DNA of 64,000 bases, taken from positions 43,753 through 107,752 of the forward strand of contig JAYQQF010000011.1 of the NCBI GenBank assembly GCA_038145705.1, in the 5' to 3' direction. This document shows positions 2,116-60,762 of the stretch, one piece after another; within the stretch, counting starts at the first letter, position 1; each line of letters starts with the position of its first letter. Below the pieces are notes generated by a model, which worked only from the letters and a program-made list of their open reading frames with translations, searched no databases and had not been told where the DNA came from. Origin of the DNA: Alphaproteobacteria bacterium. GTDB lineage: Bacteria; Pseudomonadota; Alphaproteobacteria; SMXQ01. Position numbers and translations under genes: made by a program.

Positions 2116-2769
2116 CTACCTCTTTGTCTGGAGACTGTGATAGCCGTGCTTCTTGCGGGCATCGACCAGCTTCGCGCCCGCCCTGACCTCGGCGACGATG
2201 CGGGCCTCGGCCTCGGCGACCGCGGTGGCGATGTCGAGGACTTCCTTTTCCTTCTCGACCGGCACCACCAGCACGCCGTCGTCGGAGCCGACAAGGATAT
2301 CGCCCGGACGCACCTGAACATCGCCGAGGGACACGGTGACATTGGTGCCGTCGACCTCGACCCGGTCCTTGCCCGTGCGCATGAAGCGCCCGCGCGAGAA
2401 GATCGGGTAGCCGACCTCAAGCGAGCCGGCGACGTCGCGGCACACGCCGTGAATGACAGTGCCCGCGACCCCGCGCGCCTTGGCCGTCGTCGTCAGGATA
2501 TCGCCCCACACGGTGCAGTCGAGGCGGCCCGCATTGTCGAGCACCACGACGCCGCCCGGGGGCACGTCGTCGATGTAATCGCCGACCGTCCCCTTGACGA
2601 TCCCGCAGGGCCGGTATTTCAGAGTGAAGGCGCGGCCCACGACGTGATGGCCATTGGCGAGCGGCGCAAGCCCCTGTGCCATGCCGTGAATGCCGAGCCG
2701 GTCGAGCGCGTCGGAGATCGACGCGCTGGCCAGTTGCTTGAAACCTTCGATAACGGGATCGCTAGCCAT
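2116..2769 (-). CDS. RraA-like protein, paralog 2
   Basis: MASDPVIEGFKQLASASISDALDRLG...GDILVGSDDGVLVVP; same family; 4 nt from paralog 1. Confidence 0.8.
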   Translation of the reverse strand: MASDPVIEGFKQLASASISDALDRLGIHGMAQGLAPLANGHHVVGRAFTLKYRPCGIVKGTVGDYIDDVPPGGVVVLDNAGRLDCTVWGDILTTTAKARGVAGTVIHGVCRDVAGSLEVGYPIFSRGRFMRTGKDRVEVDGTNVTVSLGDVQVRPGDILVGSDDGVLVVPVEKEKEVLDIATAVAEAEARIVAEVRAGAKLVDARKKHGYHSLQTKR

Positions 2770-2770
2770 C

Positions 2771-3439
2771 TTATTTCTTGTCCTTGTTGAGCATCTGTTC
2801 GTAACCGCCGCTTTCCATCACATGGACGATGGATGCGCCGTTGCGCACGGCTTCGGCCATGCGCGCCTCGCGGGCAGCGATTTCCTCGCCCTTGGCGATG
2901 ACCTCTTCGGCGCGCGCCTGCGGAACGATGATCGTGCCGGAACCGTCGGCAACCACGTAATCGCCGGGGTGAACCTGCACGCCCGCGAACTGGATTTCCT
3001 CGTTCACGCTGTCCTGAATGACGCGCCCGCGCGCGGTGATCGGCACCACGCCCTTGGCGTAAACGGGGAATTTTGCCGCCGCCGAATCGTCGATGTCGCG
3101 ACACGCCCCGTCGATGACGATGCCGGCCAAGCCCTTGGTCGCCGCGGCAAGCGACAGCAGCCCGCCCCAGCCAGGCACGTCGGTGCGCCCGGCCAGTTCC
3201 ATCACCAGCACGTCGCCCGGCGCCGCCGCCTCGATCGCCTCGGTGCCGAGGTGACGGGTGGGCTTTTCCACCCCCTGCGGCTTCAGCTTCACCGTGACCG
3301 CGCGCCCGGCGATGCGCGGGCACGGCCACTGCGGGCGAATGCCGAGCGTCGCGCCCTTGAGGCCCAGCGCATCGAGCGCGTCCGACACCGTGCAGGCATC
3401 CAGTTTCGAAAGGCGCTCGACCAGCGCATCACGTGCCAT
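2771..3439 (-). CDS. RraA-like protein, paralog 3
   Basis: MARDALVERLSKLDACTVSDALDALG...GDYVVADGSGTIIVP; same family; 1 nt from paralog 2. Confidence 0.8.
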   Translation of the reverse strand: MARDALVERLSKLDACTVSDALDALGLKGATLGIRPQWPCPRIAGRAVTVKLKPQGVEKPTRHLGTEAIEAAAPGDVLVMELAGRTDVPGWGGLLSLAAATKGLAGIVIDGACRDIDDSAAAKFPVYAKGVVPITARGRVIQDSVNEEIQFAGVQVHPGDYVVADGSGTIIVPQARAEEVIAKGEEIAAREARMAEAVRNGASIVHVMESGGYEQMLNKDKK

Positions 3440-3495
3440 TTGGCAATCTCCCCCAGATCAAAAACCGATTTTGACGATACTACAGGACGGCGCGT

Positions 3496-5229
3496 TCACC
3501 GCAGCCCCGAAAATCCGAAACGGCGGCCGATCAGCCGCGCGATGATCGCCATGCATCCGGTCATCAGCACGATCAGCACGCCGACGACGGCGGCGGCCTC
3601 GAAGGTGCCGTCGACGATGTGATCGACCTGCAGCATGGCAAGCGGCCGGTTCTCGGCCGTCACCAGCATGGCGATGGTGGAAACGTTGCGCGCCGCCGAA
3701 ACGAAGGTAAGTAGTGCCACAGCAACCAGCACGGGACCGAGCAGCGGCAGCACGATGCGCCGGAACGTATAGGCCCAGGAGCCGCCCGCGATGAAGGAAG
3801 CCTCTTCCAGATCGCGACCGAGCTGCACCATGTTGCTTTTGACGAGCTGCACGCCCGTCGAAATGGAATTGAGGATACAGGCGACGATGAGCACGACGAG
3901 CGTGCCGTAAAGCGGCTGAAACAGATCGACGTTGAGGAACACCCACAGAAGTGCCAGGCCGAGGATGATCCCGGGCAGGCTGGCGGGCAGCCACGACAGG
4001 AAATCGAGAACCCCGCGCGCGGCATAACGCGTGCGCACGGAAATATAGGCGACCAGCGAATACCAGAAGACGCCGATCAGGGCGGCGGAACCGCCCATGA
4101 GAAGCGTGTTCGTCGTCGCGCGCAGCATCGGCGGGTCGGTCAGGACTGTTTCCCAGTGCTCGAAGGTCCAGGCGTCCTCGAGGCCGAAATGGCCGTAAAG
4201 GCTCATGAAGGTGCCCATCAGCAGGAACACGATGGGCACCACCGTGATCAGCGTGCCGAAGGCCGCGATAATGCCGAACACCGGCCAGCGCCAGCCGCGC
4301 AGACGCAGGATGTTGAAGGTGAAGCTGGAGGTGACCGTGACGTAGCTGCGCTTGTGCGACAGGTACTGCTGCCAGAAGATCAGCGGCAGCATGCTGACCA
4401 GGATGGCGAGCCCCAGCACCGTCGAGACGCCGAACATCGGCGGATCTTCCTGAATGAACTGGTAGATCTTGGTCGAGAACACATAGAAGTTGTCGGGCGG
4501 CCCCAGAATCAGCTCGATCTCGAAGGATTCGAGCGAATGGATCAGCGAAATGCACAGCGTGATCATGAACGCCGGCATCAGCACGGGAATGACGATGCGC
4601 CGAAGCGTTCCGAGCGGACTTGCCCCCGAAATGCGCGAGGCTTCCTCCATCGCGCCGTCGAGGTTGCGAAAGGCCGGCGACAGGAAGATGTACTTCGCCG
4701 CCACCGAGCGCGCCGCGATATGGGCGAAGATGATGCCGGAGAAGCTGTAGATATTGAACGGCCCCTCCTCCATCCCGAACAGGGCGACGGCGGCCTGGTT
4801 GGCAAGACCGAACTGCGGATCGAAGAGCAGGATCCAGCCCATCAGCACCGGCAGGGCGGGCAGGAAGAAGGCGACCCAGAAGAACGCATCGATCAGCTTC
4901 TTGCCGGGAAGATCGGTGCGCGCCACCGCCCAGGCGATCAGGATCGCCGCCGGGAAGGCGATGATCTCGGTGGCGATCACGCGCTTGAAGGTATTGAGGA
5001 TGGAGGGGACCATGCCCGGCGCGCTCCACGCCGTGCGCCACAATTCCAACCCGTAGTACTTCTTGCCGTCGGCGCCCTCGACCAGGAAGCTCGCGTCGAT
5101 CAGCAGTGCCAGCGGATAGGCGACCAGCATCAGCATCACGAACAGCACGACGCTGGCGCCGACCGTGCCCGGACGCAGGCGCCGCAGGAAGCCCGGCTTT
5201 GCGGCCGGAGTGATGCCTACTTCGGCCAT
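3496..5229 (-). CDS. ABC transporter permease, fused two-domain iron(III)/spermidine-type (FbpB-like)
   Basis: ORF 3496..5340 trimmed to MAEVGITPAAKPGFLRRL...; about 12 TM segments, two EAA-type permease repeats; 13-nt overlap with upstream ATPase stop. Confidence 0.8.
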   Translation of the reverse strand: MAEVGITPAAKPGFLRRLRPGTVGASVVLFVMLMLVAYPLALLIDASFLVEGADGKKYYGLELWRTAWSAPGMVPSILNTFKRVIATEIIAFPAAILIAWAVARTDLPGKKLIDAFFWVAFFLPALPVLMGWILLFDPQFGLANQAAVALFGMEEGPFNIYSFSGIIFAHIAARSVAAKYIFLSPAFRNLDGAMEEASRISGASPLGTLRRIVIPVLMPAFMITLCISLIHSLESFEIELILGPPDNFYVFSTKIYQFIQEDPPMFGVSTVLGLAILVSMLPLIFWQQYLSHKRSYVTVTSSFTFNILRLRGWRWPVFGIIAAFGTLITVVPIVFLLMGTFMSLYGHFGLEDAWTFEHWETVLTDPPMLRATTNTLLMGGSAALIGVFWYSLVAYISVRTRYAARGVLDFLSWLPASLPGIILGLALLWVFLNVDLFQPLYGTLVVLIVACILNSISTGVQLVKSNMVQLGRDLEEASFIAGGSWAYTFRRIVLPLLGPVLVAVALLTFVSAARNVSTIAMLVTAENRPLAMLQVDHIVDGTFEAAAVVGVLIVLMTGCMAIIARLIGRRFGFSGLR

Positions 5230-6329
5230 AGGCTGAGCGCGTCCTTCGGAATGTGAAGCGGGACGGTATCGCCCTCGCGCAGACGTTCGGCACGCGGTAC
5301 GTAGACCAGCAGGTTCGCGCCACCGACGCGGACATGGCATTCAAAACGATCGCCCACGAACAGCAAGGTCTCGACCCGGCCTTCGAAGGCGTTGTGGTCG
5401 GCGCCCGCCGCAGCCCGGCCGATGCGCACGCTTTCGGGCCGGATGGCCGCCGTCAGCCTGGCGCCCGGAGCGGGAACGACCCCGCAGAAGGCGGAGGAAA
5501 CGAGCGAGATGCCGCCGTCACCGAGCCGGACCTCGGCCTCGGCGCCGTTCAGACCCGCGACTTCGATCTCGATGCGCGTCGACAGGCCGATGAAATCGCG
5601 CACGAAGGGATTGGCGGGATTTTCATAGAGATCCACCGGATCGCCTACCTGCTCGACCCGGCCCGCATCCATCACCGCGACGCGATCGGCAAGGGACAGG
5701 GCTTCGGACTGGTCATGGGTGACGAGAATGACCGTGACGCCGACCTGGCGCTGCAGTTGTTTCAGTTCCACGCGCATCTGCTCGCGCAGCTTGACGTCGA
5801 GGTTGCTGAACGGCTCGTCCAGCAACAGCACGTCGGGCTTGTAGACGAGCGCGCGCGCCAGTGCCACGCGCTGCTGCTGGCCGCCCGACAGCGTCGGCGA
5901 CGGCCGGTCCTCGAACCCGCCAAGGCCGACCTGGGCGAGGGTCTCGCGCACGGCGACCTCGATCTCCGCCGACGGCAGGTTGCGCAGGCGCAGTGGATAG
6001 GCCACGGTTTCCCCTACCGTCAGGTGCGGCCAGATCGCATAGGACTGGAACACCATGCCCATGTTGCGCTTCTGGGGCGGAACGAAAATGTCGTCCTCGG
6101 CCGAATAGAGAACATTGCCGTTGAGCGTGATGGTGCCCGTATCGGGGGAATCGAGGCCGGCGATCTGGCGCAGGGTCGTCGACTTGCCGCAGCCGGACGG
6201 CCCCAGAAGGGCAAAGACCTCGCCCTCAACGATGTCGAGGGTCAGGTCGTCGACTGCTCGGAAACTGCCGAACAGCTTGGAAATATGGGCAAGCCCGAGA
6301 AACGGCTTGCCGCGGTCCGCGGAAACGAT
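5217..6329 (-). CDS. ABC transporter ATP-binding protein (FbpC/PotA-like); start codon non-canonical or mutated
   Basis: Frame is open from stop at 6375-6377 through 5217. Walker A GPSGCGKST, LSGGQQQRV signature and C-terminal TOBE/MOP-like domain present. No ATG/GTG/TTG upstream of Walker A; SD GGGGAGG sits 6 nt before ATC at 6327-6329, which aligns with the paralog's (11136) N-terminus. Confidence 0.6.
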   Translation of the reverse strand: MVSADRGKPFLGLAHISKLFGSFRAVDDLTLDIVEGEVFALLGPSGCGKSTTLRQIAGLDSPDTGTITLNGNVLYSAEDDIFVPPQKRNMGMVFQSYAIWPHLTVGETVAYPLRLRNLPSAEIEVAVRETLAQVGLGGFEDRPSPTLSGGQQQRVALARALVYKPDVLLLDEPFSNLDVKLREQMRVELKQLQRQVGVTVILVTHDQSEALSLADRVAVMDAGRVEQVGDPVDLYENPANPFVRDFIGLSTRIEIEVAGLNGAEAEVRLGDGGISLVSSAFCGVVPAPGARLTAAIRPESVRIGRAAAGADHNAFEGRVETLLFVGDRFECHVRVGGANLLVYVPRAERLREGDTVPLHIPKDALSLWPK

Positions 6330-6515
6330 GACTGGCCTCCCCGGGCCGGGCTTTCCCGGCCTCGTGATTATCGGTCAAGGGGCACGGCCAGAGCCGAGAC
6401 CCACGCTTTCTTGACCCTCGATTTCGAGTTCCTTAGTCTAATATTCGAAAGCGATTTCCCAAATCAAAAAACAAGCGACCGGCAACCCGGCACTTGCGTC
6501 TGCGAGGACCGCCCC

Positions 6516-7796
6516 ATGACGACCCGTGAAGAAAACGAACTGATGTGCCGCGTCGGGCCGGAAACGCCCGGCGGCAAGATGATGCGCCGCTACTGGCTGC
6601 CCGTTGCCTTGTCCGAAGACCTGCCCCAGGGCGGGCGCCCCGTGCCGGTGACCCTGCTCGGCGAAAAGCTCGTGCTGTTTCGCGACGAAAAGGGCCGCCC
6701 CGGACTTTTGCAGCGCGGCTGCCCGCATCGCTGCACCGATCTGAGCTATGGCCGCATCGAGGACGGCGGGCTGCGCTGCCTCTATCACGGCTGGCTGTTC
6801 GACGTCGCCGGCAACTGCACGGAGCAGCCGGGCGAACCGCCCGAAAGCACATACAAGGACGAGGTCAAGGCGCGGTCCTACCCGCTCGTGGAAAAGGCGG
6901 GGATGATTTTTGGATACATGGGGCAGGACGCGCCGCCGGAATTTCCCGACTGGGAGTTTCTGAGAGCCGGCGAGGAAAACCGCTGCCTTCTGCGCTCCCA
7001 CATCGCCTGCAACTGGCTTCAGGCGCTGGAAGGCAATATCGACCCGGTGCATCTTTCCTACCTGCACCGCCCGCTCAAGCAGGTCGACACGCGGCCCGTG
7101 CCGGGCAGCGAGAAATCCGCCGACCAGTTCTACGGCGACGACCGGCGGCCGAACCTCGATCTGGAACAGACCGATTACGGCATCCGCATCTATTCGATCC
7201 GCCGCGCCCCCGATGACAAGCAATACGTGCGCATCACCAACTTCATCATGCCGTGCCAGGCGGCCATCGTCGGCAATGAAGGCCGGGTGAACGAGGGGTA
7301 CTCGGTGCACTGGCATGTGCCCATCGACGACTACAACAACATGCGCTTCGACTTCGTCTACAACCGCGTGCGTCCGGTCGACAAGGAGAAGTACCGCAAG
7401 CGGCTCGGCAACCTGACCGGCCCTGACGGCGTGACGAAGCGCAGTCTCGAAAACCGCTATTTCCAGGATCCCGTCGCCATGCAGACGGAAAACTTCACCG
7501 GCATGGGCGGCTCGTTCAACATCCATGACGCCTTCGCCACCGAAAGCATGGGGCCGATCAGCGACCGCACCCAGGAGCATCTCGCCACCAGCGACCGCAT
7601 CATCGTGCGCGCCCGCCGGCAGGTGCTGGAAGCGATCGCCGACGTCGCCGAAGGCAAGGAGCCGCGCGGCGTGATCCGCGATCCCGCGGGGCGCGACCGC
7701 TCCCACGTCGTCGTGCTGTCGGAGGTTATCCCCCGCGACGTCGATCCCAAGGAACACTGGAAAACACGCGTTCAACGGCGTCAGGCCGCCGAATAG
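6516..7796 (+). CDS. Rieske [2Fe-2S] non-heme iron oxygenase alpha subunit (alpha-only, GbcA/Stc2/VanA-like size class)
   Basis: ORF 5253..7796 trimmed to MTTREENELMCRVGPETPGGKMMRRYWLPV...; CPHR..CLYHGW Rieske motif; 426 aa; the 5' part of the long ORF is antisense of the ABC ATPase. Confidence 0.85.
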   Translation: MTTREENELMCRVGPETPGGKMMRRYWLPVALSEDLPQGGRPVPVTLLGEKLVLFRDEKGRPGLLQRGCPHRCTDLSYGRIEDGGLRCLYHGWLFDVAGNCTEQPGEPPESTYKDEVKARSYPLVEKAGMIFGYMGQDAPPEFPDWEFLRAGEENRCLLRSHIACNWLQALEGNIDPVHLSYLHRPLKQVDTRPVPGSEKSADQFYGDDRRPNLDLEQTDYGIRIYSIRRAPDDKQYVRITNFIMPCQAAIVGNEGRVNEGYSVHWHVPIDDYNNMRFDFVYNRVRPVDKEKYRKRLGNLTGPDGVTKRSLENRYFQDPVAMQTENFTGMGGSFNIHDAFATESMGPISDRTQEHLATSDRIIVRARRQVLEAIADVAEGKEPRGVIRDPAGRDRSHVVVLSEVIPRDVDPKEHWKTRVQRRQAAE

Positions 7797-7837
7797 GCCG
7801 CACGGCCCGGCTTCATAACGATAAGGGAGACTTCACG

Positions 7838-8959
7838 ATGACCGATTCCAACAAGCTCTGGCCGCTGAGCCGGCGCGACTTCGCCCTCGGCCTCGCGGGA
7901 ACCGCCGCCGCCACCTCGCTTCTGCGCGGCATGCCCGCTTTTGCCCAGGACTGGAAGGCGCGCTGGGATCAGGTCGTCGCCGCCGCCAACAAGGAAGGCG
8001 GGCTCGACGTCGCGGGCCCGTCGGGGCGCCAGTGGCAGCAGCTGCTGACGGATTTCGGCAAGGAATATCCGAAGATCAAGATCCGGGTGACGCCCTTCGA
8101 CAGCCGTGACTTCTGGCCGCGCATCCTGAAGGAACGGGAAGTCGGCAAGCACCTGTGGGATATCCGCGTCGGCGGCGCCGATACCCAGGTCTATCCGCTG
8201 GCGAAGGAAGGCGGGCTCGCCGATGTGCGCGCCATGTTCATCCTGCCCGATGTCGCCGATGAGTCGAACTGGTACGGCGGCTTCGACCACATGTTCCTCG
8301 ACAATGCCAAGAAATACGTGCCGAGCTTCGGCGCCTACGAAAGCCCGCTCGCGCATACCAACAAAGCCTTCATCAAGGACGGCGAGATCAAGGACATCAA
8401 GGAACTGCTGCTGCCGAAGTGGAAGGGAAAGATCGCCATGGCCAATCCGCGCGGCGGCTCAACCGCCGTCAGCATGGCGCTACTCCACAAGAAATTCGGG
8501 GCGGACTTCATCCGCGAACTGTTCACCAAGCAGCAGCCGGTCGTCGTGAAGAATTCGCGTCAGCTGATGGACTGGTTCGTATCCGGCAAGTACCCCATCG
8601 GCATCGGCCTGCCCAATTCGCAGATCGTCGCCTACCGCAAGCGCGGCGTGAAGATCGACATGGGCAAGGTTTCCGGCCTCGACATCTGGTCGGTCGGCGT
8701 CGCCGGCATCCAGGTCCTGCAGCCGCGCCCGCACCCCAACGCGACGATCGTCTTCGTCAACTGGCTGCTGAGCAAGAAGGGCCAGGAACACGTCATGCCT
8801 AAGGTGCAGATCAACAGCCGGCGCAAGGACATCCCTGTCGTCGACAAGCACCGCGAGCTTGACTGGAAGGACTACAAGAGCGCCGTTTCCGGCCAGACGG
8901 AAGAATTCACCGCCGCCATGATGGAAGCCAAGCAACTGATTCGCGAGTTGGTGAAATAG
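7838..8959 (+). CDS. ABC transporter periplasmic substrate-binding protein (family 1, iron(III)-type) with twin-arginine signal
   Basis: MTDSNKLWPLSRRDFALGLAGTAAATSLLRGMPAFAQD: SRRxFxLG Tat motif; homologous to SBP at 9996. Confidence 0.8.
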   Translation: MTDSNKLWPLSRRDFALGLAGTAAATSLLRGMPAFAQDWKARWDQVVAAANKEGGLDVAGPSGRQWQQLLTDFGKEYPKIKIRVTPFDSRDFWPRILKEREVGKHLWDIRVGGADTQVYPLAKEGGLADVRAMFILPDVADESNWYGGFDHMFLDNAKKYVPSFGAYESPLAHTNKAFIKDGEIKDIKELLLPKWKGKIAMANPRGGSTAVSMALLHKKFGADFIRELFTKQQPVVVKNSRQLMDWFVSGKYPIGIGLPNSQIVAYRKRGVKIDMGKVSGLDIWSVGVAGIQVLQPRPHPNATIVFVNWLLSKKGQEHVMPKVQINSRRKDIPVVDKHRELDWKDYKSAVSGQTEEFTAAMMEAKQLIRELVK

Positions 8960-8981
8960 CAGCGGCCGCAGCCGCCGGGAT

Positions 8982-9890
8982 TCAGGCGGCAGCGTCCCAG
9001 ACGGCGAACCCCATGGCGCAGCCCACCCCTTGCGGGCTGCGGTAGCAGGGTACGTAATCGACCATGGCGCCGCCCGCGCCCGCCGCCGCCGCCGCGATCA
9101 TCCAGTTGCGGATTTCGGAAGTGCCCGCGGTCAGGTCCTCGTCGCGCATGGCGGCCATGAAATCGAGATCGCCCTTTTCCAGCGCGGCGATGAAGTCGCG
9201 GTCGAGCTTCTCGTCGATCTTGGTGTGGCTCAACCCGCCGGAACCGATGAAGACGACGCGCCCTGCCGCCTTCGATGCGCGCGCAGCTGCACCAAGAACC
9301 CGACCGAAGGCGACGCAGCGCGCCGCTGTCGGCGCCGGCGGAAAATAGGTGTTTACCATCACCGGCAGGATCGGCACGTCCGCCTTCGGCAGAACGAATT
9401 CCAGCACGCGCCCGAAGGCATGGCCGAGACCGCCTTCCATCCGCGTCTTTTTCGACCATGACGGATCGAAGCCTGCGGCCATCAGCGCACCCAGCATTTC
9501 CTTTGCCAGTGCGCCATTGGCCTTGTAGTGACGAGACTGGTTTTCGATGGACGTGCCGAAGTACCGGTACTTGCGCGTCGCGTCCACCTCGTCCTCGATA
9601 AAGAGCGTGAACGGCGGCATGTTGTCGTCGAGCATGTTTTCGTGCTGGTCGTCGCCGATGATGACGATAGTGTCGGGCCGCCACGATTCGAGCTTTTCGC
9701 GCAATGTGGCGATGGCGGCCTTGCAGCGGGCTTCGTGGGCGCGCATCGCCTCGGGCGTGATTTCTTCCTCGATCCCTTGTTTGGGACTGAAGGGGCCGCG
9801 CGCGCGGCCCGGAAGTTCCGCCCATTTCTCCGCGGGCGTCAACAATTGCGGGCTATGGGACAGGGCCATGCAGCCGACGATCTTCGCCAT
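8982..9890 (-). CDS. extradiol ring-cleavage dioxygenase, class III, LigB-family catalytic subunit
   Basis: 302 aa, MAKIVGCMALSHSPQLL...GSGGLSH...; LigB/AmnB/DODA family hallmarks. Confidence 0.75.
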   Translation of the reverse strand: MAKIVGCMALSHSPQLLTPAEKWAELPGRARGPFSPKQGIEEEITPEAMRAHEARCKAAIATLREKLESWRPDTIVIIGDDQHENMLDDNMPPFTLFIEDEVDATRKYRYFGTSIENQSRHYKANGALAKEMLGALMAAGFDPSWSKKTRMEGGLGHAFGRVLEFVLPKADVPILPVMVNTYFPPAPTAARCVAFGRVLGAAARASKAAGRVVFIGSGGLSHTKIDEKLDRDFIAALEKGDLDFMAAMRDEDLTAGTSEIRNWMIAAAAAGAGGAMVDYVPCYRSPQGVGCAMGFAVWDAAA

Positions 9891-9995
9891 TCTCTCTTTA
9901 CCTCCCGATGAAGCAACATCACCATGTTCGACAAAATCGACAAAGCGCGATAGTGTTTTCGAAATTTAGAAACGATTTCTGCAGGGAGACGAAAA

Positions 9996-11123
9996 ATGAA
10001 TTTCGCAAAATTCATCGTCGCGATTTCCGCTGTTCTTGGCTTTTTCCCGGGCACCGTCGCCGCGCAGGCACTGGGCGACTGGAATACCGTCCTTGCCAAG
10101 GCAAAGCAGGAGGGAATTGTCGTCGTCCACGGCGCGCCGGGCAAGCGCTATGCCGAGGCCCTGGTCGGCGCCTTCAACAAGAAATATCCCGACATCAAGG
10201 TGCAGTTTTCCGGCGCCTCCAACCGCACCGACGTGCCGAAGCTGTTGCGCGAACGCAAGGCCAACATCTTTGCCTGGGACGTCTGGGTTTCGGGCCCGTC
10301 GACGGCGGTCGGGCGCCTCAAGCCGCTCGGCGTGTTCCAGCCCCTCCAGCCCTTCCTGACCAAGGACACGATGGACGACCGCCACTGGCATGACGGTTTC
10401 GACGCAGGCTGGATGGATATCGAGAAAAAGTTCTTCTATTCCTTCGACGGCACAACCCAGAACCCGATCCAGGTCAATTACGACTTCATCAAGAAGGGCT
10501 CGATCACCTCGATCAAGGACCTGCTGAAGCCGGAATTCGCGGGCAAGATCGTGTGGGACGATCCGCGCTTCAACGGCTCGGGCAACGGCTCGTCGCAAAC
10601 GATATTCGAAAACATGGGCGAGGATTTCCTGCGTCAGCTCTACAAGCAGCAGATCGTCTACACGGCGAACCGCCGCCAGCTTGCCGAGTGGGTCGTACGC
10701 GGGCGTTATCCGATCGGCCTTGGCGTCGGCGAAAACGATCTTACCGTGTTCCAGAATCAGGGCCTTGGCAAGAACGTCGAGCCGCTGCCCGACAGCGCCT
10801 ACAAGGTCCAGCAGCTGAGCTCGGGCTTCGGCGCGCTCGGCATCGTCGACCGCGCGCCGCACCCGAATGCGGCCGCGGTTTATGTCAACTGGCTGTTGAG
10901 CAAGGACGGTCAGGAAGCCTGGGCCGGCGTGCCGCGCAACTCGCGCCGCGTCGACGTGAAGCCCGGCGACCCCAGTCTCGCGCCGCGTCCCGGCATCAAA
11001 TACTTCAACGGCCAGGCGGAGCAGTTCTTCAAGACACGCGCCCGCCTGATGGACATAGCGAAGGAAACCATCACCGCCGAGATGCCGAAGAAAAAGAAGA
11101 AGCGTTCCGAGAAAAAGGAATAG
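9996..11123 (+). CDS. ABC transporter periplasmic substrate-binding protein (family 1), Sec signal peptide, poly-Lys C-terminal tail
   Basis: MNFAKFIVAISAVLGFFPGTVAAQA signal; paralog of 7838 SBP; ends ...EMPKKKKKRSEKKE. Confidence 0.8.
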   Translation: MNFAKFIVAISAVLGFFPGTVAAQALGDWNTVLAKAKQEGIVVVHGAPGKRYAEALVGAFNKKYPDIKVQFSGASNRTDVPKLLRERKANIFAWDVWVSGPSTAVGRLKPLGVFQPLQPFLTKDTMDDRHWHDGFDAGWMDIEKKFFYSFDGTTQNPIQVNYDFIKKGSITSIKDLLKPEFAGKIVWDDPRFNGSGNGSSQTIFENMGEDFLRQLYKQQIVYTANRRQLAEWVVRGRYPIGLGVGENDLTVFQNQGLGKNVEPLPDSAYKVQQLSSGFGALGIVDRAPHPNAAAVYVNWLLSKDGQEAWAGVPRNSRRVDVKPGDPSLAPRPGIKYFNGQAEQFFKTRARLMDIAKETITAEMPKKKKKRSEKKE

Positions 11124-11135
11124 TCACGGCGCAAC

Positions 11136-12227
11136 ATGAGCAACCCGATCATTGAAATAGAGGGCCTCGGCAAATCCTTCGGCAGCGTGCGCGCGCTCGA
11201 CGGCGTCGGCTTTGCCATCGCCAAGGGCGAGGTCTTCACGCTGCTCGGCCCGTCGGGCTGCGGCAAATCGACCACCCTGCGCATCGTCGCCGGACTGGAA
11301 GATGCCAGCGAAGGCGAGATCCGCCTGTCGGGGCGCACTATTTATTCCTCGACACGGCGCATCAACCTGCCGCCGGAAAAGCGCAACATGGGCATGGTGT
11401 TCCAGTCCTACGCCATCTGGCCGCACATGACAGTGGCAGAAAACGTGGGCTACCCGCTGAAACTCCGTCGCCTGCCCGCGGCGGAAATCCGCGACCGCGT
11501 CGCCCGCGCCCTCAAGGCGGTCGAACTGGAGGCACAGGCCGACCGCGACGCACCGAAACTGTCTGGCGGGCAGCAGCAGCGTGTGGCGCTGGCGCGCGCG
11601 CTGGTCTACGAGCCGGAAGTGCTGCTGCTGGACGAACCGCTGTCGAACCTCGACGTCAAGCTGCGCGAGCAGATGCGCTTCGAGCTGAAACTTCTGCAGG
11701 AACGGCTCAACCTCACCATCATCTACGTCACCCACGACCAGTCGGAAGCGCTGAGCCTGTCGGATCGCATCGCACTGATGAACTTCGGCAGGATCGAACA
11801 GGTCGGCACCCCGTTCGAGCTGTATGAAAAGCCGAAGACGGAATTCGTGCGCGACTTCCTCGGCAAGACCATCACCCTGTCGGGCCGCCTTATCGATGTC
11901 GAAGGCGGCCGCGCGCGCATCGCCCTTCCCGGCACCTCGGGACCGCTGTCCTGCCCTGCGGGCGAGCGCACCTTGCCGTCTGCGGGCAGCGATATCGTCG
12001 TCGCCATACGGCCCGAACGGGTCCGCCTCGTTCTCGACGGGCAGGCGCCGACAAACCTCCAGGGGCGCATCGAGACCGTGCTTTACCAGGGCGAGCGGAC
12101 GGAATGCCTGGTGCGCGTCGGCGAGCAGATCGTCACCGTCTACGGGCCGCCCGAGACGGCCGGGCTGCGCCAGCGCGACGTTGCCCTCCTTCTGCCGGAA
12201 GAGGCGATCAGCCTGTGGCCGAGATAG
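11136..12227 (+). CDS. ABC transporter ATP-binding protein (FbpC/PotA-like)
   Basis: Walker A GPSGCGKST, LSGGQQQRVALARAL, Walker B LLLDEP, C-terminal TOBE domain; paralog of 5217..6329. Confidence 0.9.
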   Translation: MSNPIIEIEGLGKSFGSVRALDGVGFAIAKGEVFTLLGPSGCGKSTTLRIVAGLEDASEGEIRLSGRTIYSSTRRINLPPEKRNMGMVFQSYAIWPHMTVAENVGYPLKLRRLPAAEIRDRVARALKAVELEAQADRDAPKLSGGQQQRVALARALVYEPEVLLLDEPLSNLDVKLREQMRFELKLLQERLNLTIIYVTHDQSEALSLSDRIALMNFGRIEQVGTPFELYEKPKTEFVRDFLGKTITLSGRLIDVEGGRARIALPGTSGPLSCPAGERTLPSAGSDIVVAIRPERVRLVLDGQAPTNLQGRIETVLYQGERTECLVRVGEQIVTVYGPPETAGLRQRDVALLLPEEAISLWPR

Positions 12228-13942
12228 CCTTGCCAGAAGCGGGCTCGCGCGCCCGCCGCCTCTTTGAATTCCGCACGCTGCTGTTCGCGGCGGTGCTGCT
12301 GACGACGCTGTTCCTCGTCCTCTATCCCGTCGTCCTGATCGTCTTTTACAGTTTTTCCGCAGCGGAAACCGGCGCCGATTTCGTCTTCGGGCTGGACGCC
12401 TGGCAGCGCGCCCTGCGCGAGCCGGCGATGTTCGGCACCATCATCAATACCGTGAAGCTGCTGGTCGCCATCAACCTGATTTCCTTTCCCGTCGCCATCG
12501 TCATTTCATGGGTGCTGGCTCGCACGGATATCCCGTGGCGCGGCGGGCTGGAGTTCATGTTCTGGATTTCGTTCTTCCTGCCGTCGCTCTCGGTGACGCT
12601 CGGCTGGATCATGTGCCTTGACCCCGAATACGGGCTCTTGAACAAGCTGGTGATGTTCATCTTCCCCTTCATCGAGGAAGCGCCGTTCAACATCTATTCG
12701 TTCTGGGGCATCGTGTGGGCGCATCTCGGCGCCAATGCCATCGCGGTCAAGGTGATGCTGCTGACGCCGACCTTCCGCAACATCGATTCCTCGCTCGAGG
12801 AAGCTTCGCGGGTGGCAGGCGCCGGCCGTCTCGGCACCCTTGCGCGTATCGTCGTGCCCGCCATGGCGCCGGCGCTGATCGCCATCCTGCTGATGGCGAT
12901 GATCCGCGCCATGCAGTCCTTCGAAATCGAGTTGGTTCTGGGACCGGCGTTCCAGTTCTACGTCTATTCGACGAAGGTCTATACCCTGATCGCGCAGGAG
13001 CCGCCGGAATTCGGCTCCGCCTCCGCGCTTGCAACGCTGGGCCTCGCCGCCATCCTGCCGCTGATCTTCGCCCAGCGCTGGATCACCTCGCGCCGCCAGT
13101 ACGCGACGCTGACAGGCAAGCTGCAGACCCAGCCCGTCCGGCTCGGGCCGTGGCGTATACCGGTATTCCTCGCCGTGCTCACGGTCGTGCTGCTGCTGAC
13201 CGTGGTGCCGCTGGTCTTCGTCGGGCTGGCCTCGACCATGAAGCTGTTCGGCTTCTTCAACATTCCCGATCCCTACACCTTCGATCACTGGGTCACGGTG
13301 CTGACCGACGAAACCTTCGGTCAGTCGGTGACGAACACGCTGGGCATGGCGGGCGGGGCCGGAATCCTGTCGGTCGTGCTTTTCTCGCTGGTCGCCTATT
13401 TCACCGTACGCACCACTTTCAAGGCGCGCGCCGTTCTCGACTTCGTGTCCTGGCTGCCCTTCGCTGTCCCCGGCATCCTGTTCGGCGTCGGCCTCTTGTT
13501 CGTGTTCCTGGAATCGCCGCTGTTCCGGCCGCTTTACGGCACCATGTGGCTGCTGATCCTTGCCACCGTCATCAGTTCGATGACGCTCGGCGTCCAGATC
13601 ATCAAGTCGAACATGATGCAGCTCGGCAACGAGCTGGAAGAAGCCTCGCGCGTCGCAGGCGCTACCTGGTGGCATACCTTTACCCGCGTCGTGCTGCCGA
13701 TCATGGTGCCGGTGCTGCTGCTGGTCGGCATCATGAACTTCATTTCGGCGGCGCGCGACATCGCCTCGGTGGCGCTGGTGGCGACGGCGGAAACCAAGAC
13801 CCTCGCCCTTCTGCAGCTCGACTACATGGTGGAGGGCCGCTACGAGGCGGCCTCGGTCGCATCCTTCGTCGTCATCGTCCTGTCGACGGGGATCGCCCTT
13901 CTCGCCCGCGCGCTTGGCTTGCGCATCGGCATTCGCAACTAG
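12215..13942 (+). CDS. ABC transporter permease, fused two-domain (FbpB-like)
   Basis: ORF 12104..13942; GTG at 12215 gives (M)AEIALPEAGSRARRL, mirroring MAEVGITPAAKPGFLRRL of paralog 3496..5229, with the same 13-nt overlap with the ATPase stop. Confidence 0.75.
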   Translation: MAEIALPEAGSRARRLFEFRTLLFAAVLLTTLFLVLYPVVLIVFYSFSAAETGADFVFGLDAWQRALREPAMFGTIINTVKLLVAINLISFPVAIVISWVLARTDIPWRGGLEFMFWISFFLPSLSVTLGWIMCLDPEYGLLNKLVMFIFPFIEEAPFNIYSFWGIVWAHLGANAIAVKVMLLTPTFRNIDSSLEEASRVAGAGRLGTLARIVVPAMAPALIAILLMAMIRAMQSFEIELVLGPAFQFYVYSTKVYTLIAQEPPEFGSASALATLGLAAILPLIFAQRWITSRRQYATLTGKLQTQPVRLGPWRIPVFLAVLTVVLLLTVVPLVFVGLASTMKLFGFFNIPDPYTFDHWVTVLTDETFGQSVTNTLGMAGGAGILSVVLFSLVAYFTVRTTFKARAVLDFVSWLPFAVPGILFGVGLLFVFLESPLFRPLYGTMWLLILATVISSMTLGVQIIKSNMMQLGNELEEASRVAGATWWHTFTRVVLPIMVPVLLLVGIMNFISAARDIASVALVATAETKTLALLQLDYMVEGRYEAASVASFVVIVLSTGIALLARALGLRIGIRN

Positions 13943-60672: not shown

Positions 60673-60762
60673 TGGCGGTGGGGGTGGGATTCGAACCCAC
60701 GGTACCCTTACGGGCACAACGGTTTTCGAGACCGCCCCGATCGACCGCTCCGGCACCCCACC
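60673..60762 (-). tRNA. tRNA-Ser (anticodon CGA), class II with long variable arm, encoded CCA
   Basis: Reverse complement GGTGGGGTGCCGGAGCGGTCGATCGGGGCGGTCTCGAAAACCGTTGTGCCCGTAAGGGTACCGTGGGTTCGAATCCCACCCCCACCGCCA: 7-bp acceptor stem, anticodon loop CTCGAAA, T-loop GGTTCGAATCC. Confidence 0.85.

What the first reader, a model, noticed from the sequence alone, without database searches (positions are those of the whole stretch)
5217..6377. ABC ATPase gene with no canonical start codon; Shine-Dalgarno followed by ATC
The reading frame of the FbpC/PotA-like ATPase is open from the stop at 6375-6377. The first ATG/GTG/TTG lies after the Walker A motif (the ORF track therefore reports only MGMVFQ...). 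A strong GGGGAGG SD sits 6 nt upstream of an ATC codon at 6327-6329, exactly where the paralog at 11136 starts by alignment. Either a rare non-canonical ATC start, a point mutation ATG to ATC that silences this importer, or a sequencing error.
Basis: seen in the sequence. Interest (0 to 1): 0.5.

Follow-up and report, generated by a model that had tools for sequence, protein, structure and literature searches.

The report
ABC ATPase gene lacking canonical start
An intact ABC-importer ATPase gene lost its ancestral GTG start codon (now GTT) yet is clearly still translated, most likely from the adjacent rare ATC codon behind a strong ribosome-binding site, and public annotations wrongly truncate it.

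Summary
On the minus strand the ATPase frame is open from TGA 6377-6375. It has no ATG/GTG/TTG until ATG 6062-6060, which lies after the Walker A motif. GGGGAGG (6342-6336) sits 6 nt before ATC 6329-6327.

All eight outgroup loci carry GTG one codon downstream, where the window has GTT (6326-6324). So the ancestral start was GTG, not ATG at the ATC position. ATC already preceded GTG in the closest outgroups.

It is not a sequencing error. Two independent metagenome lineages (dS 0.34-0.46 from the window) share the identical GGGGAGGCCAGTCATCGTTTCC.

It is not a dead gene. Among the three GTT lineages, the 89 codons before the first canonical ATG carry at least 36 substitutions, 33 at third positions. 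Codons 16-89 have 30 changes, none altering the protein (dN/dS 0.014-0.033).

Best reading: near-cognate AUC initiation, weak in E. coli reporter assays. This is inferred, not shown. Public gene calls for this clade are truncated (281 or 288 aa, no Walker A) or over-extended (416 aa).

It is a new, evolutionarily supported member of a known kind, of moderate interest.

The parts
5217..6329 (-). Proposed full-length ABC importer ATPase CDS: 370 codons from ATC, plus the stop TAG at 5219-5217
   Evidence: The reading frame is continuous. It matches ABC_tran plus TOBE_2 and COG3842-type families. It has the same length and register as the 369-aa orthologs that start with GTG.
6327..6329 (-). ATC, the proposed near-cognate (AUC) initiation codon
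   Evidence: It lies 6 nt after GGAGG. It is invariant in the three GTT lineages. It was already present in front of GTG in the closest outgroups L094, L095, L083 and L096. Its use as the start is inferred, not shown.
6324..6326 (-). GTT, at the position of the ancestral GTG start codon
   Evidence: All outgroup loci (L083, L084, L085, L087, L089, L090, L094, L095, L096) have GTG here.
6336..6342 (-). Shine-Dalgarno sequence GGGGAGG
   Evidence: Read directly. It is the best anti-SD duplex in the region. It is conserved in all orthologs.
6344..6361 (-). 5'-UTR hairpin GGCCGGG-AAAG-CCCGGCC directly upstream of the SD
   Evidence: Folding predictions. An equivalent stem with a different loop is predicted in each of the orthologs folded.
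6375..6377 (-). In-frame TGA that closes the frame upstream
   Evidence: It is also TGA in L081 but TGG in L092.
6177..6203 (-). Walker A motif (GPSGCGKST), upstream of the first canonical start
6060..6062 (-). First in-frame canonical start (ATG), used by the public 281-aa annotation P0121
   Evidence: P0121 is identical to this 281-aa ORF.
3496..5229 (-). Two-domain permease gene (577 aa). Its ATG overlaps the end of the ATPase gene by 13 nt, so it is probably translationally coupled.
   Evidence: It has two BPD_transp_1 matches. Related assemblies differ at only 10-13 of 577 residues.
6516..7796 (+). Divergently transcribed Rieske/LigXa-like oxygenase gene. It shares the 186-nt intergenic region with the ATPase gene.
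   Evidence: The same arrangement is seen in all related loci that include this side.
7838..8959 (+). Substrate-binding protein gene, presumably belonging to the same importer
   Evidence: Pfam SBP_bac_1 and SBP_bac_8 matches. It is syntenic in related loci.

Best explanation
The gene is an intact, functional ATPase subunit of an ABC importer: ATPase plus fused two-domain permease on the minus strand, binding protein across the divergent promoter region. In the ancestor, translation began at a GTG 9 nt after a GGAGG Shine-Dalgarno sequence. On the branch leading to the window's clade, that GTG became GTT and the next codon changed from AGT to TCC.

The protein is still made. Ribosomes recruited by the unchanged GGGGAGG most likely initiate with fMet-tRNA on the in-frame near-cognate AUC one codon upstream (6329-6327, 6 nt after the SD). 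That gives Met-Val-Ser-Ala-Asp..., one residue longer than the ancestral product. Because AUC is a weak initiator, the expected consequence is lower synthesis of the ATPase and of the translationally coupled permease.

Shown: absence of a canonical start, the ancestral GTG, sharing of the allele by three diverged lineages, and purifying selection on the codons upstream of the first canonical ATG. Inferred: that AUC, rather than GUU or another codon, is the initiation codon, and that output is reduced.
For: 1. No canonical start lies before Walker A, and SD-6 nt-ATC is present.
2. DNA alignments of 11 loci show GTG at the orthologous codon in every outgroup. ATC GTT appears only in the window, L081/L082 and L092. 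ATC GTG appears in the closest outgroups L083, L094, L095 and L096.
3. Among the three GTT lineages, the first 89 codons carry at least 36 substitutions, distributed 2/1/33 over codon positions 1/2/3. Codons 16-89 carry 30 substitutions, all synonymous. Pairwise dN/dS is 0.014-0.033 at dS 0.34-0.46. For the window-L081 pair, 24 synonymous against 3 non-synonymous differences gives a binomial p of 1e-11 against neutrality.
4. The permease and binding protein are equally conserved in the same assemblies.
5. AUC is one of four near-cognate codons measured at 1-2% of AUG with sfGFP and 0.02-3% with NanoLuc in E. coli. N-terminal Met was confirmed by mass spectrometry for AUC (bioRxiv 10.1101/063800).
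6. An ATC-started uORF gave weak translation and a Ribo-seq peak in the alphaproteobacterium Sinorhizobium meliloti (bioRxiv 10.64898/2026.05.12.723736). One ATC upstream start was found in E. coli N-terminomics (PMC13245402).
Against: - There is no direct evidence for the N-terminus: no proteomics, Ribo-seq or reporter data.
- Codons 1-15 show 3 non-synonymous and 3 synonymous changes among the three lineages. Selection therefore does not pin the start to ATC rather than GTT 6326, ATT 6284 or CTG 6275.
- Invariance of ATC across only three lineages is not statistically significant. By my own rough estimate, chance would give this about 0.17 of the time.
- The SD is predicted to be largely base-paired with codons 2-3 in this clade, which would lower initiation further.
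- The AUC efficiencies come from E. coli reporters, not from this organism.
- The shared allele could in principle have spread by recombination. That would shorten the time the gene has survived without a canonical start. However, the block conserved across all three is only about 46 nt, with variable sites on both sides.
Confidence: 0.65

Rival explanations
1. The gene is functional, but initiation is at another non-canonical codon. Candidates are the mutated ancestral site GUU (6326-6324, 9 nt after the SD, the ancestral spacing), a mixture of AUC and GUU, or the downstream AUU 6284 or CUG 6275.
For: GUU keeps the ancestral SD spacing. In E. coli reporter assays many non-near-cognate codons initiate at low but detectable levels. 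Codons 1-15 are weakly constrained, so a slightly shorter protein cannot be excluded from sequence alone.
Against: GUU differs from AUG at two positions and belongs to the lowest class in the 64-codon survey. AUU 6284 and CUG 6275 have no SD. Starting there would remove the conserved first strand PFLGLAH, which is kept in all orthologs.
Confidence: 0.17
2. The start-codon loss silenced the gene. It is a young pseudogene, and the importer is either dead or served by the paralogous ATPase at 11136-12227.
For: No canonical start is present. A 53%-identical paralog with an ATG start lies 5 kb away in a second, complete transporter operon. Public pipelines do not call a full-length protein.
Against: Three lineages that share GTT have since accumulated 30 synonymous and 0 non-synonymous changes in codons 16-89, with no frameshift or stop. 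dN/dS is 0.014-0.033, lower than in the rest of the gene. The SD, spacer and hairpin are invariant while the neighbouring intergenic DNA varies. The downstream permease and binding protein are conserved.
Confidence: 0.05
3. Sequencing or assembly error: the true sequence has GTG (or ATG) at the start.
For: A single base would restore GTG.
Against: The identical GGGGAGGCCAGTCATCGTTTCC is found in contigs from two JGI samples and one ENA assembly. These differ from the window at many other sites. Truncated 281- and 288-aa calls come from three further contigs.
Confidence: 0.01
4. Translation starts at the out-of-frame TTG 6378-6376 and reaches the ATPase frame by a ribosomal frameshift. Alternatively, the real product is the 281-aa protein from ATG 6062, as annotated.
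For: The frame opened by TTG 6378 stays open for about 50 codons across the SD and ATC (my own reading). The 281-aa ORF is what public annotation reports.
Against: There is no SD before TTG 6378, no recognisable slippery site, and outgroups lack this arrangement altogether. The third-position substitution pattern fits the ATPase frame from codon 16 on. A 281-aa product lacks Walker A and the A-loop and could not bind ATP (established ABC ATPase biochemistry). It also would not explain selection on the upstream codons.
Confidence: 0.02

Closest known systems
Bacterial genes that use near-cognate AUU, AUC, AUA or CUG start codons. The textbook cases are E. coli infC and pcnB with AUU (from my own knowledge). 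Also the AUC reporters of Hecht et al., the ATC-uORF upstream of hfq in S. meliloti, and the ATC upstream start seen in E. coli N-terminomics.
   Same: A single mismatch to AUG in the third position. A normal SD at normal spacing. Initiation with Met by initiator tRNA at low efficiency.
   Different: Here AUC would be the sole start of a conserved transporter ATPase. It was reached by loss of the neighbouring GTG rather than by change of the start codon itself. The evidence is evolutionary (three lineages under purifying selection), not biochemical. There is no reason to expect IF3-type autoregulation as in infC.
ABC importer ATPases of the Fe3+/spermidine/putrescine type (COG3842: FbpC, PotA, PhnT, UgpC-like; PF00005 plus TOBE_2)
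   Same: Full motif set and a C-terminal TOBE_2 domain. An operon with a fused two-domain FbpB-like permease and an SBP_bac_1/8 binding protein.
   Different: It scores below the curated cut-off of every named equivalog: PhnT2 339.5 against 457.7, PotA 321.9 against 482, FbpC 279.2 against 496. The substrate is therefore unknown. The genomic context (LigXa-like Rieske oxygenase, LigB, RraA-like proteins) points to an aromatic or related acid rather than iron or polyamines. That is an inference.
Start-codon-loss pseudogenes
   Same: The ancestral canonical start has been destroyed, and pipelines stop calling the full protein.
   Different: There is no relaxation of selection and there are no disabling mutations.

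Membership tests
ABC transporter ATP-binding protein (PF00005 + TOBE_2, COG3842 type) | Walker A, Q-loop, LSGGQ signature, Walker B and H-loop in order, with a C-terminal TOBE_2 domain | tested here: met
   GPSGCGKST, MVFQSYA, LSGGQQQR, LLLDEP and VTHDQ are all present. NCBIfam matches have E-values of 1e-101 to 1e-83 and cover profile positions from about 3 to the end. Homologues carry PF00005 and PF08402.
Named equivalogs FbpC / PotA / PhnT2 | Score at or above the curated NCBIfam cut-off | tested here: not met
   Scores against cut-offs: 339.5 against 457.7 (PhnT2), 321.9 against 482 (PotA), 279.2 against 496 (FbpC). 'FbpC/PotA-like' is acceptable as a family description, not as a functional assignment.
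Gene with a non-canonical (near-cognate) start codon | No ATG, GTG or TTG in frame upstream of an indispensable N-terminal domain | tested here: met
   The same is true in L081, L082 and L092.
Gene with a non-canonical (near-cognate) start codon | A near-cognate codon at functional distance from a Shine-Dalgarno sequence, at the orthologous initiation site | tested here: met
   GGGGAGG, then 6 nt, then ATC. The orthologous GTG is the adjacent codon.
Gene with a non-canonical (near-cognate) start codon | Evidence that the codons upstream of the first canonical start are translated | tested here: met
   Substitutions fall 2/1/33 over codon positions 1/2/3. Codons 16-89 have 30 synonymous and 0 non-synonymous changes. 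dN/dS is 0.014-0.033.
Gene with a non-canonical (near-cognate) start codon | Direct identification of the N-terminus or initiating ribosome (N-terminal proteomics, Ribo-RET, toeprint, reporter mutagenesis) | not testable with these tools
   No expression data are available for this uncultured lineage.
Pseudogene by start-codon loss | Relaxed selection (dN/dS towards 1) and/or frameshifts or stops after the loss | tested here: not met
   All three lineages have uninterrupted 370-codon frames.

The most novel reading that the evidence does not exclude
The replacement of GTG AGT by GTT TCC was not a tolerated accident but a selected down-tuning of this importer. It simultaneously removes the canonical start, leaving only AUC, and creates a GUUUCC stretch that pairs with the GGAGGC of the SD. 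This places AUC in an 8-nt loop, a structure predicted only in this clade. If true, this would be a natural and long-maintained case in which a conserved bacterial transporter depends solely on an AUC start inside an SD-occluding hairpin. Such an arrangement could be condition-responsive, for example to IF3 level or temperature.
Probability: 0.12. Interest if true: 0.6.

Novelty: new member of a known kind. Interest (0 to 1): 0.4.

Why it matters
1. It is a clean natural example, supported by comparative evidence, of a conserved gene surviving loss of its canonical start codon, apparently by using a neighbouring near-cognate AUC. Such cases are rarely documented outside reporter assays.

2. 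It exposes a systematic annotation failure. Every public gene call found for this clade is truncated to 281 or 288 aa without Walker A, or over-extended to 416 aa. An apparently complete aromatic-catabolism importer would therefore be scored as lacking a functional ATPase.

3. It gives a simple, testable system for how much AUC initiation an alphaproteobacterial ribosome allows: ATC against GTG, with or without the SD-pairing codons.

Tried and rejected
- Exact look-ups of the window's own 281-aa ORF and Rieske protein, and of P0121, returned no contig. The source assembly could not be named. Cluster tables only show it is in NCBI and IMG on a 343,116-bp contig.
- The metagenome DNA-pattern scan for the conserved N-terminal coding block returned only 2 contigs, one of them already known. 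The sample of GTT-clade lineages therefore stayed at three with DNA, plus three known only from truncated protein calls.
- The genome-contig scan found nothing closer than 71% identity, so no GTDB representative belongs to the clade.
- The sigma-70 consensus scan found no promoter in 6200-6600. Hand-read candidates (TTGATT-18-TATTAG, or TTGAC/GATAAT) were not used as evidence.
- Rfam found nothing in the 5' region or near it.
- RNAalifold on the UTR gave an ambiguous consensus because MAFFT misaligned the 3' arm. Single-sequence folds were used instead.
- Full-length versions of the protein with Met at ATC or at GTT are absent from the 15-billion-protein collection.
- The idea that the ATC is a mutated ATG was rejected from the ortholog DNA.
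- Upstream in-frame ATA 6371 and ATC 6368 were rejected. They have no SD, and the few substitutions there include second-position changes.
Full report
**What is in the sequence**

On the minus strand, an ABC-transporter ATPase frame runs from an in-frame TGA (6377-6375) to TAG (5219-5217). A codon-by-codon listing shows no ATG, GTG or TTG until ATG 6062-6060. That ATG lies 42 codons after the Walker A motif GPSGCGKST (6203-6177). The mechanical ORF list therefore reports only a 281-aa ORF, 5217-6062.

GGGGAGG occupies 6342-6336, followed by CCAGTC and then ATC at 6329-6327 and GTT at 6326-6324. This GGGGAGG is the strongest anti-SD match between 6270 and 6400. Its 6-nt spacing is like that of neighbouring genes, whose GGGAG-type SDs sit 6-10 nt before ATG. 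All ABC motifs and a TOBE_2 domain are intact.

The only inexact detail concerns the paralog at 11136. Its Met1 aligns with residue 6 of the ATC-started protein, not residue 1.

**What relatives show**

A protein search returned full-length orthologs at 78-83% identity. They begin with V or M nine residues before the conserved Phe of PFLGLAH. It also returned a 94%-identical cluster whose representative is only 288 aa.

The DNA of these loci was fetched and aligned:

| Loci | Source | Sequence at the start |
|---|---|---|
| L083, L094, L095 | JGI 3300042987; MAG assemblies GCA_041255765.1 and GCA_046052465.1 | GGGGGAGGCCTGTC ATC GTG AGT |
| L096 | Logan SRR28892716 | ...TTTC ATC GTG AGG |
| L084, L090 | JGI 3300037761; Ga0055460 | ACA GTG ACC / ACT |
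| L085, L087 | JGI metagenomes | ATA GTG ATC |
| L089 | ENA ERZ28668946 | TTC GTG ACG |
| window, L081/L082, L092 | source not identified (NCBI and IMG); JGI 3300021961 and 3300021962; ENA ERZ27257201 | GGGGAGGCCAGTC ATC GTT TCC |

The ancestral start is therefore GTG at the codon that is GTT in the window. ATC is the codon in front of it and was already there in the two closest outgroup lineages.

**Not an error**

L081/L082 and L092 come from other projects. They differ from the window at many sites: dS is 0.34-0.46 in the N-terminal part and 0.35-0.49 in the rest of the gene. Yet all carry the identical SD-spacer-ATC-GTT-TCC block.

The 90%-identity protein cluster holds six different public gene calls:
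- 281 aa: P0121, identical to the window's ORF, from NCBI and IMG, on a 343,116-bp contig.
- 281 aa: P0122.
- 288 aa: P0006, P0123 and P0124, called from a GTG at VPPQKRN.
- 416 aa: P0125, from L092. There the upstream TGA is TGG, and the caller ran back to a TTG inside the intergenic region.

No full-length 370- or 369-aa version exists in the collection.

**Not a dead gene**

All three GTT lineages keep an uninterrupted 370-codon frame. Counts for the 89 codons between ATC and the first canonical ATG:

| Measure | Result |
|---|---|
| Window vs L081 | 24 synonymous, 3 non-synonymous differences |
| Window vs L081, dN/dS and dS | 0.033 and 0.46 |
| Window vs L081, binomial p against the neutral synonymous fraction | 1e-11 |
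| Other two pairs, dN/dS | 0.030 and 0.014 |
| Minimum substitutions across the three lineages, codon positions 1/2/3 | 2 / 1 / 33 |
| Codons 16-89 | 30 substitutions, all at third positions, none changing the protein |

This segment includes the A-loop and Walker A. It is at least as constrained as the rest of the gene, where dN/dS is 0.07-0.10. The permease and binding protein in the same assemblies are equally conserved, with 10-13 differences in 577 residues. Hence the region upstream of the first canonical start is translated in lineages that have no canonical start.

**Which codon starts**

This step is inferred.

ATC 6329-6327:
- It is the only near-cognate codon with an SD at functional spacing (6 nt).
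- It lies at the orthologous initiation site.
- It is invariant in the clade.

GTT keeps the ancestral 9-nt spacing but mismatches AUG at two positions. ATT 6284 and CTG 6275 lack an SD and would delete the conserved first strand. ATA 6371 and ATC 6368 lack an SD as well.

Published measurements:
- In E. coli, AUC, AUA, AUU and CUG initiate at about 1-2% of AUG with sfGFP and 0.02-3% with NanoLuc. N-terminal Met was shown by mass spectrometry for AUC (10.1101/063800).
- An ATC-uORF is weakly translated and has a Ribo-seq peak in the alphaproteobacterium S. meliloti (10.64898/2026.05.12.723736).
- One ATC upstream start was seen in E. coli N-terminomics (PMC13245402).

Codons 1-15 carry 3 synonymous and 3 non-synonymous changes among the three lineages. 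Selection alone therefore cannot place the start more exactly. I put 0.65 on AUC as the main start, and about 0.85 on 'functional gene, non-canonical initiation at 6329-6324'.

**Context and likely consequence**

The ATPase is the first gene of its operon. The permease ATG (5229-5227) overlaps the ATPase end by 13 nt and has no good SD of its own. A weak ATPase start should therefore lower both proteins.

Across a 186-nt intergenic region lie:
- a LigXa-like Rieske oxygenase gene (6516-7796, +);
- the binding-protein gene (7838-8959, +);
- a LigB-type dioxygenase (8982-9890, -);
- a second complete paralogous importer (9996-13942, +).

Two RraA-like genes follow the permease (2116-3439, -). 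This looks like an aromatic-acid catabolic island. The transporter's substrate is unknown, and no NCBIfam equivalog cut-off is reached.

**RNA structure**

A 7-bp hairpin (6361-6344) abuts the SD. A comparable stem with a different loop is predicted in each of the orthologs folded.

Only in the GTT clade do the new codons 2-3 (GUUUCC) pair with GGAGGC. This puts AUC in an 8-nt loop, and the SD is predicted to be almost fully paired. This may be chance in GC-rich RNA. Or the same mutational event may have lowered translation in two ways. I list that as the most novel reading, at probability about 0.12.

**Comparison with what is known, and verdict**

Mechanistically this is near-cognate initiation, a known phenomenon. 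E. coli infC and pcnB use AUU (my own knowledge), and reporter and N-terminomics data exist for AUC.

It is a new member of that kind, with unusually good comparative support. It has a slightly different origin: the real start was lost next to a pre-existing in-frame AUC.

It is not a pseudogene and not an artefact. Its practical importance is the annotation error in all public calls of this clade. Interest is moderate (0.4).

Noticed in passing
L093 1-2776 (ENA ERZ27275788 k141_1549607); junction at L093 ~678-681, equivalent to window ~6058: This contig is 99.5% identical to L092 from the MGMVFQSYAIWPH motif onward. Upstream it carries the N-terminus of a different ABC ATPase (61-69% identity, ATG start, protein P0002) and unrelated, visibly AT-richer upstream DNA. 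It is either a chimeric assembly at a conserved motif or a real recombinant that restores a canonical start.
   Followed up: partly
window 6344-6361 (-), and the equivalent positions in L081, L084, L089, L094 and L096: A GC-rich hairpin (GGCCGGG / CCCGGCC) sits directly 5' of the Shine-Dalgarno sequence. It is predicted in each of the orthologs folded, with different loop sequences (AAAG, GAAG, GCAUA, AAUGGAA and others). It may be an mRNA 5' stabiliser or a regulatory element. There is no Rfam match.
   Followed up: partly
window 6318-6343 (-): In the GTT clade only, codons 2-3 (GUUUCC) are complementary to GGAGGC of the SD. The AUC sits in the 8-nt loop, and the predicted probability that the SD is unpaired is mostly below 0.05 in the window. 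In outgroups the SD is partly free.
   Followed up: partly
window 6330-6515 (intergenic), compared with L084, L089, L094 and L096: The ATPase-Rieske intergenic region is 186 nt in the window's clade and 254-267 nt in outgroups. About 75 nt between the conserved block and the hairpin are missing, and the sequence there (…TTGACCGATAATC…) is clade-specific.
   Followed up: no
window ~6397-6468 (read on the minus strand): The block TTTTTTGATTTGGGAAATCGCTTTCGAATATTAGACTAAGGAAC…GGGTCAAGAAA is conserved in all orthologous loci, even at 78% protein identity. It is probably the shared promoter/operator of the two divergent operons. The consensus promoter scan found nothing.
   Followed up: no
L092 ~3090-3100 (equivalent to window 6375-6377): The in-frame upstream TGA is TGG in this lineage. 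The gene caller therefore produced a 416-aa protein (P0125) starting at a TTG inside the conserved intergenic block. This is an over-extension, not a real N-terminus.
   Followed up: yes
window 2116-13942: This stretch looks like an aromatic-catabolism island: two RraA-like (aldolase-family) genes, a LigXa-like Rieske oxygenase, a LigB-type extradiol dioxygenase, and two paralogous FbpABC-type importers (ATPases 53% identical). Public names such as 'iron(III) transport' are probably misleading.
   Followed up: partly
window 60673-60762 (-): tRNA-Ser (CGA), the only RNA gene found in the window by ARAGORN and Rfam.
   Followed up: no
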